Below are positions 3,225-64,000 of a DNA stretch of 64,000 nt, piece after piece; position 1 is the stretch's first letter, and each line of letters starts with the position of its first letter. Location: positions 65,060 through 129,059 of the forward strand of contig CALEYQ010000001.1 of the NCBI GenBank assembly GCA_937924855.1, in the 5' to 3' direction. The notes below the pieces were generated by a model that did not search any database, had not been told where the DNA came from, and saw only the letters and a program-made list of their open reading frames with translations. Both the position numbers and the translations under genes were made by a program. The DNA is from an uncultured Bacteroidota bacterium. GTDB taxonomy: Bacteria; Bacteroidota; Bacteroidia; JADZBD01.

Positions 3225-5219
<1,995 letters not shown>

Positions 5220-59733: not shown

Positions 59734-62436
59734 ATGAACGAATTAGTAATCTATCTGATCCCCTTGCTCGGATTTTTCGGGCTGGTGGTAATGGGTTTGA
59801 AATCTTCCTGGATTTCCCGTCAGGATGCCGGCGAAGCAAAGATGCAGGAACTGGCCGGTTATATTGCTGCCGGTGCCATTGCATTCCTGAAAGCAGAATG
59901 GAAGATCCTTGGGATTTTTGCAGCCATAACCGCCGTAATTCTGGGTTGGTCGGGTACCCTTATCGAGCATAGCTCTCCCATTATTGCCATTGCGTTTTTA
60001 ATCGGTGCAGTTTTTTCTGCCGTAGCCGGATATATAGGAATGAAGGTGGCAACCAAAGCCAATGTAAGAACTACTCAGGCTGCAAAAACTTCACTGGCGA
60101 AGGCCCTTCAGGTTTCCTTCACCGGAGGTACTGTAATGGGATTGGGAGTGGCAGGACTGGCGGTGCTTGGTTTGGGAGGTTTGTTTATTGCCTTTACCCA
60201 AATGTTTGTTTCCCCCGGCGATGCGGTTACCGGCGATTCCATGCGTAAAGCGATTGAGGTGCTGGCCGGTTTTTCACTGGGTGCAGAATCTATTGCTTTG
60301 TTTGCCCGTGTGGGTGGTGGAATTTATACAAAGGCCGCCGACGTGGGTGCCGACCTGGTAGGAAAAGTGGAAGCCGGAATTCCGGAGGATGATGTAAGAA
60401 ATCCTGCTACCATTGCGGATAACGTAGGTGATAACGTAGGTGATGTTGCGGGTATGGGAGCCGATCTTTTCGGTTCTTACGTTGCAACCATTCTGGCCAC
60501 TATGGTATTGGGACAGGAAGTAGCGGCCGAAGATAATTTTGGCGGACTCTCTCCTATATTACTTCCCATGGTTATTGCGGGTCTGGGTCTTGTTTTCTCG
60601 GTGGTGGGAACCTTTTTTGTGAGAATCAGTAAGGAAACCGATTCCGTTCAGAGAGCTTTAAATCTGGGTAATTGGTCTTCTATTATTTTCACTGCCATTG
60701 CTTCTTATTTTGTGGTGTACTGGATGCTTCCGGCGGAAGCAACTTTTGTAAGAGACGGAAGTATCATTACCCCCAAGGGCGTTTTTCTATCCATTGTTAC
60801 CGGTCTTGTGGTGGGAACCTTAATGTCTATGATTACAGAATATTATACCGCCATGGGTAAACGTCCTGTTAATTCCATTGTGAAACAATCAAGCACCGGG
60901 CATGCCACCAACATTATTGGCGGACTTGCGGTGGGTATGGAATCTAAGCTTGCACCCATGATTGTATTGGCCGCAGGTATTTATGTGTCTTATTGGTTTT
61001 CCGGCTTGTACGGTGTGTCTATTGCAGCTGCCGGAATGATGGCTACCACCGCTATGCAGCTTGCTATTGATGCTTTCGGGCCCATTGCAGACAATGCAGG
61101 TGGAATTGCAGAAATGAGTGGTCTTCCCAAGGAGGTGCGTCAGCGAACCGACAACCTCGATGCGGTAGGTAATACCACTGCAGCTACCGGAAAAGGATTT
61201 GCCATTGCTTCCGCTGCGCTCACTTCACTGGCTTTATTTGCCGCTTTCGTAGGTGTTGCCGGAATTAACCGAATTGATATTTACAAAGCCGAGGTGCTTG
61301 CCGGACTCTTTGTGGGAGCCGTAATTCCTTTTATCTTTTCTTCTCTGGCTATTGCAGCCGTTGGGAGAGCCGCTATGGCCATGGTAAATGAAGTGCGCCG
61401 TCAGTTCCGTGAAATTCCAGGAATCATGGAACATAAAGCCAAGCCGGAATATGAAAAATGCGTGGCTATTTCAACCCAGGCTTCCATTCGTGAAATGGTG
61501 GCTCCCGGTCTGATTGCCATTCTTACTCCGGTGCTGATTGGATTTTCTTTTGGTCCTGAAGTACTTGGAGGCCTGCTTGCCGGAGTTACCGTTTCAGGAG
61601 TTTTGATGGGCATGTTTCAAAGTAATGCCGGCGGTGCCTGGGACAATGCCAAAAAATCTTTCGAAAAAGGAGTGGAGATTGATGGTCAGATGTATTATAA
61701 GGGTAGTGAGCCCCACAAAGCAGCTGTAACCGGCGATACCGTTGGCGATCCTTTTAAAGACACCTCCGGTCCTTCGATGAATATTCTGATTAAACTTATG
61801 TCTATTGTATCCCTTGTAATTGCTCCGCATATTGCAATCAAGGGACTGGAAGATCATGGCGACCATGTTAAATCAACCATGCCCGTTTCGGAAAGTGTTT
61901 CTGATTTAAATGGTGTTTTTGAGTTTGACGCAAGCCATTCCTTCGTTGAGTTTAATATCCGCCACTGGTTATCTACCGCAAAAGGAACCATTGCCATTGA
62001 TTCCGGAAAATTGAATTTCCCCGGTTCTCTGAGTGATGCGGAGGTTAGTTTGTTCTTAAGTGTGAGAACCATCAAAACCCAAAATGAGGACCGCGATAAG
62101 CATTTGATGGCTCCCGATTATTTTTCTTCCGACAGTTTTCCAACCATCCGGTTTCTGGCAAAAGGAGTAGAAGAAGTTTCCGGAAATCCTGATTTCAGGT
62201 ATAGAACTACCGGAAATCTGCAGCTTCGGGGAATTTCCGCGCCGATCGTTGTTTACTTCAATTACCTGGGTGAAGCCAAACGGGAAGGAAAGCCAAGCAT
62301 TTTTGTTTTTGAAGGTGAATCCCGCCTCAACCGGATGGATTATAAAATAGGCAGAGAGAGTAAAGGAGTTGGAAGTGATGTAGTGATTAAATTCTCTGCA
62401 GAAACCCGAAAACAGGAACCCTCGGCAAATCCTTAA
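59734..62436 (+). CDS. hppA: Membrane pyrophosphate-energised ion pump (H+/Na+-PPase, K+-dependent-type signature) fused to a C-terminal YceI-like domain
   Basis: Residues 1 to about 700 contain PPase motifs (…[21 protein letters not shown]…, [29 protein letters not shown]). The C-terminal ~190 aa contains a YceI-like signature (…[24 protein letters not shown]…). One uninterrupted 900-aa ORF. Confidence 0.85.
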
Positions 62437-62440
62437 TATG

Positions 62441-62467
62441 AAAAACCGGCGAAAGCCGGTTTTTTTA
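62441..62467. terminator. Bidirectional rho-independent terminator
   Basis: A5 run, then ccggc-gaaa-gccgg hairpin, then T8 run, between convergent hppA and the 62470-62937 gene. Confidence 0.6.
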
Positions 62468-62469
62468 TG

Positions 62470-62937
62470 CTATTTGGGACCTGTGCCGGAATTTTGATTC
62501 TGCTTGGGAGGTTCGTTTTTCTTTTTGTTTTCCTCGCTTCCCTCTTCATTTATGGAGAGGTTCTTTTTGGTGCCGTTGGGGTCAATGAGATTTCCTCCGG
62601 TGTTGGGGGTTGTTTTGGATGATCCGGGCTGGTTGTTACCCTTGGAATCTTTTATAAAATCAAGGGTTTTTTTTCCGCCTCCTTTTTTCTTTTCTTCATC
62701 TCCCTCCTCACCAATGGAAAGCTTGTCGGAATGCGGAGCGGGAGAACTTGGTTTTTTAATAGTAGTGTCCTGAGGCTCAGGGTTTGTGGTTTTAGGTTCT
62801 TCGGGTTTTGGCTCGTTAACGGTTTTTTTTATCAATTCCTTGCCGTCGATGTTTTTCCGTAAATCGCCGAGTTTCTGGGCGAATCCGGTTCCCACCGAAA
62901 AAAACAAAACAATACTAAGGGTAAATAATAATTTCAT
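62470..62937 (-). CDS. Small secreted low-complexity (K/P/E/N-rich) protein, paralog A
   Basis: Signal peptide (MKLLFTLSIVLFFSVGTGFAQ). Predicted disordered. Carries LSIGEEGDEEKKK and LSINEEGSEENKKK motifs. Confidence 0.5.
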   Translation of the reverse strand: MKLLFTLSIVLFFSVGTGFAQKLGDLRKNIDGKELIKKTVNEPKPEEPKTTNPEPQDTTIKKPSSPAPHSDKLSIGEEGDEEKKKGGGKKTLDFIKDSKGNNQPGSSKTTPNTGGNLIDPNGTKKNLSINEEGSEENKKKNEPPKQNQNSGTGPK

Positions 62938-62938
62938 T

Positions 62939-63280
62939 TTATTCAGGCTTTTTGTCCTGGGTTTTAGGTTTTACACCTGTTTCAGGTTTTACGGATTTTG
63001 TTTTTGGTTCTTTGGAGTCACCTTCTTCGTTGATGGAGATCCGCTCCGTTTTCTGAGGAACTCCGGATGACTTTTTCGACCTTTCGGGGCTGTTCTTCTC
63101 GGGAACAACTTTTACATCTTTTCCGGTCTCATTGGAGGTGGGAGGAGCATCCTTGGCTCGGTCAGGGCTAACCACTGTTTTCGGTTTGGTTACCGAGTTG
63201 TCTGGTTTTTCCTGCGCTATGGAAGTGGAAGAAAAGCCCAGAAAAAAGAACAAGGAAAGGAGTGAGGTAATTGATTTCAT
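62939..63280 (-). CDS. Small secreted low-complexity protein, paralog B
   Basis: Signal peptide (MKSITSLLSLFFFLGFSSTSIAQ). Carries ISINEEGDSKEPK, the same motif as paralog A. Only 1 nt separates the two genes. Confidence 0.5.
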   Translation of the reverse strand: MKSITSLLSLFFFLGFSSTSIAQEKPDNSVTKPKTVVSPDRAKDAPPTSNETGKDVKVVPEKNSPERSKKSSGVPQKTERISINEEGDSKEPKTKSVKPETGVKPKTQDKKPE

Positions 63281-63377: not shown

Positions 63378-64000
63378 TTATTTTAACAACTCAAGGGCTT
63401 CCTGTGTGGAAATAAGTTGTTTGTCGTAGTAGGAAACCACAAAGGCGTCGTCGATATTGTACTTTTTGATAATCTCATCACGGAAAAGGGTGGCCTCCTT
63501 GTAAGTTTTAAAGGACCCTGCGGTATATTGGGTCATTCCCGACAAAGTGGTAATGGTACTTACACCTTTTATTTTAGAAATTTTGGACTTAAATTCTTCC
63601 GGCGGATCATTTTTGAACACCCCCAACTGAATTTTAAATTCCAGCTTATCCTTATCGCGGTTTTCAATAACCGGATTTGATTTGTTTTCGTTAATGGATT
63701 GTTGCTGGGTGGTTTCCGTAATTCCGGCCTGTTCCAACGGAACTCTTTTTCCGTCCTTGTAGGCCACGATGAAGGCATCTTTATAGCCCAACTGAACCAT
63801 TTGTTTTCTTAGATCGGATGCCTTGTTGAATTCTGAGAAACTTCCGGTCAGGTATTTATAATATCCATCTTCGGTTTTCAGGCTTACCACATTTGGCACA
63901 TCCCGGAAAGTTCCGGTTGGAATTTTATTGATAAAGGCTCCCACCTGCACCCTGAAAACAACCCCGGGGGCAATAGTATTTCCGGTATTATTTCCGGTAT
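63378..64000 (-). CDS. SPOR-domain (peptidoglycan-binding) protein, N-terminally truncated by window end
   Basis: Two SPOR-like units (FRVQVGAF… and FKIQLGVFKN…). The reading frame stays open past 63950 to the window end. The upstream codons give …FRVQVGAF. Confidence 0.7.
   Translation of the reverse strand, partial: TGNNTGNTIAPGVVFRVQVGAFINKIPTGTFRDVPNVVSLKTEDGYYKYLTGSFSEFNKASDLRKQMVQLGYKDAFIVAYKDGKRVPLEQAGITETTQQQSINENKSNPVIENRDKDKLEFKIQLGVFKNDPPEEFKSKISKIKGVSTITTLSGMTQYTAGSFKTYKEATLFRDEIIKKYNIDDAFVVSYYDKQLISTQEALELLK

What the first reader, a model, noticed from the sequence alone, without database searches (positions are those of the whole stretch)
59734..62436. Membrane pyrophosphatase fused in frame to a YceI-like periplasmic lipid-binding domain
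Bacterial H+/Na+-PPases are about 650-750 aa. This ORF is 900 aa with no stop or frameshift. After the last PPase motif and final TM (…[20 protein letters not shown]) comes a linker and a ~180-aa domain carrying the YceI signature (…RDKHLM.PDYF…FPTIRF…). YceI proteins are periplasmic polyisoprenoid/quinone-binding beta-barrels. The PPase C-terminus is on the extracytoplasmic face, so the topology is consistent. The GNTTAA motif (Ala rather than Lys) places the pump in the K+-dependent class. Such a fusion could tether the pump to quinone/isoprenoid pools or act as a regulatory sensor. I am not aware of it being described.
Basis: partly seen in the sequence, partly recalled or inferred. Interest (0 to 1): 0.6.

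Follow-up and report, generated by a model that had tools for sequence, protein, structure and literature searches.

The report
Membrane pyrophosphatase carrying periplasmic YceI domain
This gene really does encode a pyrophosphate-driven ion pump with a lipid-binding YceI barrel tethered to its outer end; hundreds of uncultured Bacteroidota share the design, I found no paper describing it, and what the extra domain does is unknown.

Summary
Window 59734..62436 (+) is one uninterrupted 900-aa ORF: membrane pyrophosphatase (Pfam H_PPase, residues 15-696, E 8e-266), a roughly 25-residue disordered linker, then a YceI domain (729-890, E 6.5e-26).

It is not an assembly artefact. All 120 best database relatives (66-100% identity, 859-975 aa) carry both domains, and a cluster member of the same length, at least 90% identical, was seen on 12 contigs.

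An AlphaFold model gives a 16-helix pump (TM-score 0.87 to the Vigna enzyme) and a confident barrel (pLDDT about 93, TM-score 0.86-0.88 to solved YceI proteins).

Two refinements. The ion-gate residues (E5.43, G6.53, A6.57, A12.46, G12.49, invariant in 120 relatives) match the Flavobacterium johnsoniae-type K+-dependent proton pump. The database name "sodium-translocating" is therefore probably wrong. The C-terminus of Bacteroidota pumps also looks like a modular slot. Relatives carry YceI (two pump subfamilies, two YceI subtypes), an OmpA-like domain, a desulfoferrodoxin-like domain, Cys/Met-rich tails, or a short tail with no recognised domain.

The variable, disordered linker favours an independently acting tethered periplasmic module over an allosteric regulator. 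I found no paper describing the fusion. It is a new variant of a known kind, of moderate interest.

The parts
59734..62436 (+). Complete gene: 900-aa mPPase-YceI fusion protein, stop codon included
   Evidence: ORF list. N-terminus [10 protein letters not shown]... aligns with the MNxxVIYLVP consensus of 115 homologues.
59776..61821 (+). Membrane pyrophosphatase domain (residues 15-696), 16 transmembrane helices
   Evidence: Pfam PF03030 E 8.4e-266. NCBIfam NF001955 1226 bits. PDB 4a01 E 2.7e-173. AF2 with Foldseek gives target TM-score 0.86-0.88 to VrPPase and TmPPase.
60286..60288 (+). Codon of E185 = E5.43, the relocated semi-conserved gate glutamate. It aligns with VrPPase S235. Positions 6.53 and 6.57 are G247 and A251.
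   Evidence: Alignment to 4a01/6afs. Residue read-out. Invariant in 120 homologues. E5.43 is listed as the F. johnsoniae H+-PPase signature in PMC6882861 Table 1 and in PMC10897367.
61168..61197 (+). [10 protein letters not shown] motif (residues 479-488): A483 = 12.46 and G486 = 12.49, the K+-dependent signature
   Evidence: The A/K12.46 rule is stated in PMC6882861.
61708..61833 (+). TM16 (residues 659-700), carrying N683 (16.46) and K687 (16.50). It runs from the cytoplasmic hydrolytic centre to the periplasmic exit.
   Evidence: AF2 helix 659-700. Alignment to VrPPase N738/K742.
61834..61911 (+). Flexible linker (residues 701-726, [25 protein letters not shown]...), His-containing
   Evidence: pLDDT below 50 for residues 703-717. 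Linker length is 21-74 aa and poorly conserved among 120 homologues; one third carry Cys-rich inserts.
61912..62412 (+). YceI-like eight-stranded beta-barrel domain (residues 727-893)
   Evidence: Pfam PF04264 E 6.5e-26. PDB sequence hits 2fgs, 1wub, 1y0g, 7bwl. AF2 pLDDT about 93. Foldseek: 1wub target TM-score 0.86, 1y0g 0.88, 7bwl 0.87. The residues nearly invariant in the barrel (D732, H735, S736, F740, H744, T782, R787, D788, H790, L791, F797) fall in the HS.V.F..H and T.N..RD.HL motifs, which are also present in the solved YceI proteins 2fgs and 1wub.
62440..62465 (+). Terminator-like hairpin immediately after the stop codon
   Evidence: 11-bp stem GAAAAACCGGC/GCCGGTTTTTT followed by a T run.

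Best explanation
The gene encodes a K+-dependent membrane pyrophosphatase of the Flavobacterium johnsoniae type. It hydrolyses cytoplasmic PPi and most likely pumps H+ (not Na+) outward. Its last helix, TM16, exits into the periplasm and continues through a flexible linker of about 25 residues into a YceI lipocalin-like barrel.

Shown here: the fusion is real and conserved, both folds are confirmed, the gate and K+ signatures are present, and the tether is flexible.

Inferred: the YceI barrel sits in the periplasm without needing a signal peptide, held at the inner membrane near the pump's exit. There it binds a hydrophobic isoprenoid or quinone-type ligand and acts as an independent envelope-protection or lipid-handling module, as proposed for BcnA/YceI homologues. 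It is co-expressed and co-localised with the pump rather than gating it.

The C-terminus of Bacteroidota mPPases behaves as a modular docking slot for periplasmic domains. YceI is the most common occupant among the relatives retrieved with this window's sequence.
For: Fusion and conservation.

Folds: AF2 mean pLDDT 83.9, with the barrel at about 93. Foldseek matches to VrPPase, TmPPase and to YceI structures 1wub, 1y0g, 7bwl, 5ixg, 5ixh.

H+ type: E5.43, G6.53, A6.57 are invariant in 120 relatives. This matches the signature assigned to the experimentally characterised F. johnsoniae H+-PPase (PMC6882861 Table 1; PMC10897367).

K+ dependence: A12.46 and G12.49.

Periplasmic location: TM16 polarity, and no transmembrane segment after residue 706. 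OmpA peptidoglycan-binding domains occupy the same position in Runella, Dyadobacter and Spirosomataceae orthologues. Many relatives have Cys-rich linkers.

Independent module rather than regulator: the linker is disordered and 21-74 aa long with no conservation. The pump domain is 81% conserved on average against 36% for the YceI domain, yet the conserved YceI motifs are retained.

Modular slot: the same position holds YceI of two subtypes, OmpA, a desulfoferrodoxin-like domain, or a Cys/Met-rich tail, in both the E5.43 and E6.53 pump clades.

YceI function: homologues bind polyisoprenoid or ubiquinone-8 and act with cytochrome b561 against lipid peroxyl radicals. Fusions to that membrane protein are reported (PMC9113575).
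Against: No ligand, transport or localisation experiment exists for any member of this family. Ion specificity rests on a signature taken from one characterised enzyme.

Model coordinates and PAE were not available, so docking of the barrel onto the pump's periplasmic face cannot be excluded. pTM is 0.71.

Recurrence of YceI on two pump subfamilies could equally mean a real functional coupling between pump and barrel.

No conserved neighbouring gene gives a pathway clue.
Confidence: 0.55

Rival explanations
1. The YceI domain is a regulatory sensor. Binding of a quinone or isoprenoid ligand in the periplasm is transmitted through TM16, an inner-ring helix that carries gate residues 16.46 and 16.50. 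This modulates pumping or hydrolysis. This is one of the first reader's suggestions.
For: The domain attaches directly to TM16, which lines the ion gate and exit channel. YceI recurs on two different pump subfamilies, which hints at a functional link. Some linkers contain His or Cys/Met clusters that could sense redox state or metals.
Against: The linker is predicted disordered (pLDDT below 50). Its length varies from 21 to 74 residues and it is not conserved, which makes it a poor mechanical transmitter. Unrelated domains (OmpA, desulfoferrodoxin-like, Cys-rich) or a short tail with no recognised domain occupy the same site while the pump core stays about 80% identical.
Confidence: 0.12
2. 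The C-terminal domain is an envelope anchor or localisation device. Just as the OmpA-like variant ties the pump to peptidoglycan, the YceI barrel would tie it to a particular lipid, such as an isoprenoid carrier or an outer-membrane lipid. This would position the pump at specific envelope sites.
For: OmpA-domain variants occur in sister lineages and in Burkholderiales mPPases (PMC11210485). YceI family members bind long isoprenoid lipids (PDB 1wub is described as a polyisoprenoid-binding protein).
Against: The desulfoferrodoxin-like and Cys/Met-rich variants are not obvious anchors. No localisation data exist. A 16-helix integral membrane protein does not need a lipid anchor.
Confidence: 0.15
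3. The pump is a Na+ (or Na+/H+) pump, as the database names say, and the YceI fusion is as described.
For: The best NCBIfam match is the equivalog NF001955 'sodium-translocating pyrophosphatase', 1226 bits against a cutoff of 1059. JGI names relatives 'K(+)-stimulated pyrophosphate-energized sodium pump'.
Against: The Na+-site glutamate E6.53 is replaced by Gly, and a Glu sits at 5.43 instead, invariantly. This arrangement is described for the F. johnsoniae H+-PPase and is argued to be unable to support Na+ binding (PMC10897367). Position 16.46 is Asn, as in the VrPPase residue it aligns with.
Confidence: 0.15
4. The read-through is a sequencing or assembly artefact that joins separate hppA and yceI genes.
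For: None found. One relative from a long-read assembly (L060) shows the two parts in different frames.
Against: All 120 best homologues, from four data sources, have both domains in one protein. A 900-aa member of the same 90%-identity cluster occurs on 12 contigs. About 67 species-level genomes have the continuous ORF. No split hppA+yceI arrangement was seen within 4 kb. L060 is explained by an indel at the junction and still has the YceI part immediately in line.
Confidence: 0.01

Closest known systems
Flavobacterium johnsoniae-type K+-dependent H+-translocating membrane pyrophosphatase (Luoto et al. 2011; summarised in PMC6882861 Table 1 and PMC10897367)
   Same: The 16-helix PF03030 core, A12.46/G12.49 K+-dependence residues, the gate glutamate relocated to 5.43 with none at 6.53 or 6.57, and the Bacteroidota lineage.
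   Different: The window protein carries a 200-residue C-terminal linker plus YceI domain. I could not establish whether the characterised F. johnsoniae enzyme has any C-terminal domain. Cultured relatives examined here have an OmpA domain (Runella, Dyadobacter) or only a 42-residue tail (Pedobacter).
YceI / BcnA / TT1927b / GNA1030 bacterial lipocalin-like proteins (PF04264; PDB 1wub, 1y0g, 7bwl, 5ixg, 5ixh, 3hpe, 2fgs)
   Same: The sequence family (E 6.5e-26), the eight-stranded barrel fold (target TM-score 0.86-0.88), the conserved HS.V.F..H and T.N..RD.HL motifs, and an extracytoplasmic location.
   Different: Those are free, signal-peptide-secreted proteins of about 170-190 aa. Here the barrel has no signal peptide and is covalently tethered to an ion pump. 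Identity to solved members is only 16-25% in the Foldseek structural alignments.
Cytochrome b561 (LcoA/YceJ) with YceI (BcnA) gene pairs and fusions (PMC9113575)
   Same: A YceI barrel physically linked to a polytopic inner-membrane protein, which places the barrel at the periplasmic face of the membrane.
   Different: The partner there is a quinone-reactive haem protein, which gives an obvious redox logic. A pyrophosphatase has no known quinone or redox chemistry.
mPPase with C-terminal OmpA-like domain (Paucibacter sp. KCTC42545, 810 aa; PeerJ 2024 review PMC11210485)
   Same: An accessory periplasmic domain appended after TM16 of an mPPase. The same kind of fusion is found here in Runella, Dyadobacter and Spirosomataceae orthologues of the window protein.
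   Different: A different appended domain (peptidoglycan-binding OmpA rather than the YceI barrel), a different pump class (K+-insensitive, Burkholderiales), and a shorter protein.

Membership tests
Membrane-integral pyrophosphatase (PF03030 / TIGR01104) | Sequence match above the curated threshold over the whole domain | tested here: met
   PF03030 884 bits (cutoff 29.7), profile positions 2-645 of 645. TIGR01104 898 bits (cutoff 652).
Membrane-integral pyrophosphatase (PF03030 / TIGR01104) | 16-TMH fold with a cytoplasmic hydrolytic centre, and the conserved Asp/Lys motifs (GGG[IV][25 protein letters not shown], GDTVGDPxKDTSGP) | tested here: met
   AF2 model with Foldseek target TM-score 0.86-0.88 to 4a01, 6afs and 4av3. 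The motifs are read directly in the translation and are invariant in 115 homologues.
Membrane-integral pyrophosphatase (PF03030 / TIGR01104) | PPi hydrolysis coupled to cation transport | not testable with these tools
   Requires expression and vesicle assays.
K+-dependent mPPase subfamily | Ala at 12.46 and Gly at 12.49 (Lys/Thr in K+-independent enzymes) | tested here: met
   A483 and G486 in [10 protein letters not shown], invariant in 120 homologues. The rule is stated in PMC6882861.
F. johnsoniae-type H+-PPase | Semi-conserved gate glutamate at 5.43 and absent from 6.53 and 6.57 | tested here: met
   E185 aligns with VrPPase S235. G247 sits at 6.53 and A251 aligns with E301 (6.57). Invariant in 120 homologues.
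F. johnsoniae-type H+-PPase | H+ (not Na+) transport | not testable with these tools
   Inferred from the signature only.
Na+-translocating PPase (NCBIfam NF001955 equivalog name) | Score above the curated cutoff | tested here: met
   1226 bits against a cutoff of 1059.
Na+-translocating PPase (NCBIfam NF001955 equivalog name) | Glutamate at 6.53 forming the Na+ site | tested here: not met
   Position 6.53 is Gly247. The functional name is therefore probably wrong for this clade.
YceI-like domain (PF04264) | Sequence match above the gathering threshold | tested here: met
   91.9 bits against 23.7, profile positions 1-149 of 150. PDB YceI hits at E 4e-14.
YceI-like domain (PF04264) | Eight-stranded lipocalin-like beta-barrel | tested here: met
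   AF2 gives strands across 727-893 with pLDDT about 93. Foldseek: 1wub, 1y0g and 7bwl at target TM-score 0.86-0.88, rmsd 2.0-2.7.
YceI-like domain (PF04264) | Binding of an isoprenoid, quinone or other hydrophobic ligand in the barrel | not testable with these tools
   No coordinates were available for cavity analysis. Needs lipidomics of the purified domain.
YceI-like domain (PF04264) | Extracytoplasmic location | tested here: inconclusive
   There is no signal peptide, but the domain follows an outward-running TM16. OmpA domains at the same site in orthologues support a periplasmic location. No experiment has been done.

The most novel reading that the evidence does not exclude
Bacteroidota membrane pyrophosphatases are platforms that display periplasmic envelope-defence modules at the mouth of the ion exit channel: YceI lipocalins, desulfoferrodoxin-like domains, Cys/Met-rich metal-binding tails and OmpA anchors. 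The pump and the module would be functionally coupled. For example, PPi-driven proton export could feed or position quinol- or iron-based scavenging of superoxide or lipid-peroxyl radicals. That would link PPi energy conservation under stress to periplasmic redox protection.
Probability: 0.12. Interest if true: 0.7.

Novelty: new variant of a known kind. Interest (0 to 1): 0.42.

Why it matters
Membrane pyrophosphatases are usually treated as self-contained 16-helix pumps. A 2024 review singled out an 810-aa OmpA-tagged enzyme as exceptionally long (PMC11210485).

This analysis shows that a whole Bacteroidota lineage of F. johnsoniae-type pumps, and a second E6.53-type lineage, routinely carry a periplasmic YceI barrel or other modules after TM16.

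Three things follow. It gives a natural system for asking what YceI proteins do, which is still unresolved. It suggests a link between PPi-energised membranes and envelope lipid or oxidative stress. It also flags a systematic mis-annotation: "sodium-translocating" is applied to a clade with the H+-type gate.

The practical consequence is modest until someone measures ligand binding and transport.

Tried and rejected
1. Assembly artefact: rejected by recurrence.

2. A split hppA plus yceI arrangement in relatives with short tails (Pedobacter L070/L072, L074): tblastn found no YceI within ±4 kb. L060 is a frameshifted fusion in a long-read assembly.

3. A conserved neighbour or operon partner such as cytochrome b561: none found. 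The best neighbour family occurs in only 19 of 81 loci and is a flavoprotein disulfide oxidoreductase. The window has no second YceI.

4. A single origin for the fusion: the NJ trees are too weakly resolved to decide. YceI-bearing pumps are scattered in the E6.53 clade, and two YceI subtypes each occur in both pump clades. This favours repeated gain or domain swapping but does not prove it.

5. The length of the characterised F. johnsoniae enzyme: Luoto 2011, Luoto 2013 and Baykov 2013 were not held.

6. Literature on the fusion: the search terms returned no relevant paper.

7. AFDB fold search to find named UniProt fusions: the library was unavailable.

8. Exact-sequence contig look-up of the window protein: not on record.

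Full report
**Observation**

Window 59734..62436 (+) is a single ATG-initiated ORF of 900 codons with no internal stop. The gene contains no N bases and nothing unusual at the domain junction. GC content and GC3 of the pump part (0.479 and 0.421) and of the tail (0.440 and 0.405) are close to each other and to the window mean of 0.456.

Pfam places H_PPase on residues 15-696 (E 8.4e-266) and YceI on residues 729-890 (E 6.5e-26, 91.9 bits against a cutoff of 23.7). NCBIfam agrees on the pump part and gives a weaker hit, below its cutoff, to the YceI model PRK03757. A strong terminator-like hairpin (62440-62465) follows the stop codon. No hydrophobic segment follows residue 706, and there is no second YceI in the window.

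**Is it an artefact?**

No. All 120 best hits among 5.8 billion protein clusters carry both PF03030 and PF04264. They are 66-100% identical and 859-975 aa long, come from NCBI, JGI, ENA and Logan, and many sit on contigs longer than 100 kb. A 900-aa member of the window protein's own 90%-identity cluster was seen on 12 contigs.

A scan of one genome per GTDB species returned 80 loci. About 67 have the continuous pump-YceI ORF, and all of those are Bacteroidota, almost all MAGs. One long-read assembly (L060) has an indel at the junction, with the YceI part continuing in another frame.

**Structure**

An AlphaFold2 model built on 115 homologues has mean pLDDT 83.9 and pTM 0.71. It shows long helices from residue 5 to 700, a disordered stretch at 703-717 (pLDDT below 50), and a confident barrel across 727-893 (pLDDT about 93).

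Foldseek against the PDB returns the Vigna radiata and Thermotoga maritima pumps at target TM-score 0.84-0.88. Separately, it returns the YceI family: TT1927b (1wub) at 0.86, E. coli YceI (1y0g) at 0.88, PA0423 (7bwl) at 0.87, and BcnA/BcnB.

**Which pump is it?**

Alignment to VrPPase shows that query E185 pairs with S235 (5.43), G247 occupies 6.53, and A251 pairs with E301 (6.57). N683 and K687 pair with N738 and K742 (16.46 and 16.50). A483 and G486 occupy 12.46 and 12.49. All five specificity positions are invariant in the 120 homologues.

A gate glutamate at 5.43, with none on helix 6, is the signature tabulated for the Flavobacterium johnsoniae K+-dependent H+-PPase (PMC6882861, Table 1). 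That arrangement is argued to be incompatible with Na+ binding (PMC10897367).

The names attached to this family are "sodium-translocating pyrophosphatase" and "K(+)-stimulated ... sodium pump". They are therefore probably wrong. This is inference from a signature, not a measurement.

**Topology**

The hydrolytic-centre motif [14 protein letters not shown] (667-680) lies at the cytoplasmic start of TM16 and the gate lysine K687 lies further along it. The helix therefore runs outward and residue 700 emerges on the exit (periplasmic) side. This rests on the established architecture of the solved pumps.

There is independent support. Orthologues from Runella, Dyadobacter, Spirosomataceae and Emticicia have the same E5.43 gate and the same SLVIAP[HY]IA end of TM16. 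In place of YceI they carry an OmpA peptidoglycan-binding domain (PF00691, E 2e-23 and 8e-22 for the Runella and Dyadobacter tails scanned; the others carry the same OmpA-type motifs by eye). A third of the YceI-bearing relatives have Cys-rich linkers.

**A modular C-terminal slot**

Within the E5.43 clade the tail takes one of four forms:
- YceI.
- OmpA.
- A Cys/Met-rich segment alone (L078, L080).
- A short tail of about 40 residues (Pedobacter, L074).

A second Bacteroidota clade has the E6.53 gate (S5.43, E6.53, G6.57). It also contains YceI-bearing members: P0124, P0271-P0276, P0279, P0287, P0288, P0300, P0310, P0358 and P0374. In a neighbour-joining tree these are scattered among proteins of about 795 aa with no recognised C-terminal domain. 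They are also mixed with proteins of 875-892 aa carrying a desulfoferrodoxin-like domain (PF01880, E 2e-14, with a CNLHGIW motif) and a Cys/Met/His-rich repeat variant (P0360).

Two YceI subtypes exist. One is the classic HS.V.F..H / T.N..RD.HL type. The other is a W.GKK..G.H.G type. Each is found in both pump clades. The trees are too weakly resolved to count events, but the pattern fits repeated acquisition or swapping better than a single inheritance.

Outside this group, many mPPase cluster representatives have unrelated C-terminal tails of 60-300 residues.

**Mechanism**

The pump domain is 81% identical on average across the family. The YceI domain is only 36% identical, yet it keeps the conserved YceI motifs. 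The linker is disordered and ranges from 21 to 74 residues.

I therefore favour a tethered, independently acting periplasmic module (confidence about 0.55) over an allosteric sensor (about 0.12) or a localisation anchor (about 0.15).

What the module does is inferred from the family. Solved YceI proteins are described as polyisoprenoid-binding proteins or antibiotic sequesterers. The Neisseria homologue binds ubiquinone-8. Burkholderia BcnA, with its cytochrome b561 partner, limits lipid peroxidation, and fusions of YceI to that membrane partner are reported (PMC9113575).

A desulfoferrodoxin-like domain at the same site in anaerobic relatives is at least compatible with an envelope oxidative-stress theme. 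This is speculation.

No conserved neighbouring gene helps.

**Novelty**

Searches of 8 million papers and preprints found nothing linking pyrophosphatases with YceI or lipocalins. A 2024 review notes an OmpA-like C-terminal domain in an 810-aa Paucibacter enzyme and calls it longer than any mPPase identified before (PMC11210485).

The architecture is visible in databases, but as far as I could search it is undescribed and uncharacterised, and it appears confined to uncultured Bacteroidota. It is a new variant of a known kind and moderately interesting. The broader pattern of modular periplasmic tails is the more noteworthy result.

Noticed in passing
L067, L069 (Runella), L076 (Dyadobacter), L075, L079, L073, L077; tails after SLVIAP[HY]IA: Orthologous E5.43-type pumps in cultured Cytophagales carry a C-terminal OmpA peptidoglycan-binding domain of 173-196 residues (PF00691, E 2e-23) instead of YceI. 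A similar fusion has been noted in the literature only for Burkholderiales (PMC11210485).
   Followed up: partly
P0292, P0301, P0312, P0341, P0344, P0346, P0348, P0349, P0352, P0356, P0373 (875-892 aa): E6.53-type Bacteroidota mPPases (those named are Bacteroidales) with a C-terminal desulfoferrodoxin / superoxide-reductase-like domain (PF01880, E 2e-14; HTPEI...HPNQEDHWIDF...CNLHGIW motifs). If the topology is as inferred, this would be a periplasmic SOR-like domain on an ion pump.
   Followed up: partly
L078, L080 tails; P0360 tail; linkers of P0031, P0033, P0075, P0120, P0007, P0044, P0107: Cys/Met/His-rich segments with no Pfam match. Examples are MDCCAKPGMEMKCDMDKC..EQCAAYCDS..C, MMGDHECSEACADGC repeats, and KLVCNINGxEYVCTSKxQCDS. 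They occur either as the whole tail or between the pump and YceI, and look like periplasmic metal-binding or disulfide modules. The window's own linker has HGDH.
   Followed up: no
P0124, P0271-P0276, P0279, P0287, P0288, P0300, P0310, P0358, P0374: A second pump subfamily (S5.43, E6.53, G6.57: the gate arrangement shared by Na+- and Na+/H+-PPases and some H+-PPases) also carries YceI. Two YceI subtypes are each found on both pump clades, which suggests recurrent fusion or domain swapping.
   Followed up: partly
window 59734-62436 and all relatives: NCBIfam NF001955 and JGI name this clade a sodium pump, although it lacks E6.53 and has the H+-type E5.43 gate. This is a probable systematic mis-annotation.
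   Followed up: partly
P0133 (894 aa), P0180 (799 aa): Cluster representatives with the E5.43 gate residue but Asn/Lys-rich low-complexity C-terminal tails, typical of AT-rich eukaryotic genomes. The E5.43 arrangement may therefore not be confined to Bacteroidota.
   Followed up: no
L060 4183-4650: In a long-read MAG assembly the pump ORF stops at 4204 and the YceI part continues in another frame. This is probably an indel error and is the only apparent 'split' found.
   Followed up: yes
window 62470-62937 (-) and 62939-63280 (-): Two adjacent small genes encode proteins with hydrophobic, signal-peptide-like N-termini that are rich in K, E and P. They share a repeated (L/I)SI(N/G)EEG(D/S) motif and have no Pfam match. 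A protein with a weak SPOR-domain match (PF05036, E 3.5e-5) follows at 63378-63950 (-).
   Followed up: partly
P0125 (960 aa), P0162 (878 aa), P0145 (1016 aa), P0256 (1001 aa), P0186, P0176, P0238: Other mPPase cluster representatives have long, unrelated C-terminal extensions. These include a coiled-coil-like tail, a CarboxypepD_reg-like tail, Ser/Asp-rich repeats, and an extra hydrophobic segment followed by further sequence. C-terminal elaboration of mPPases seems common in metagenomic data.
   Followed up: no
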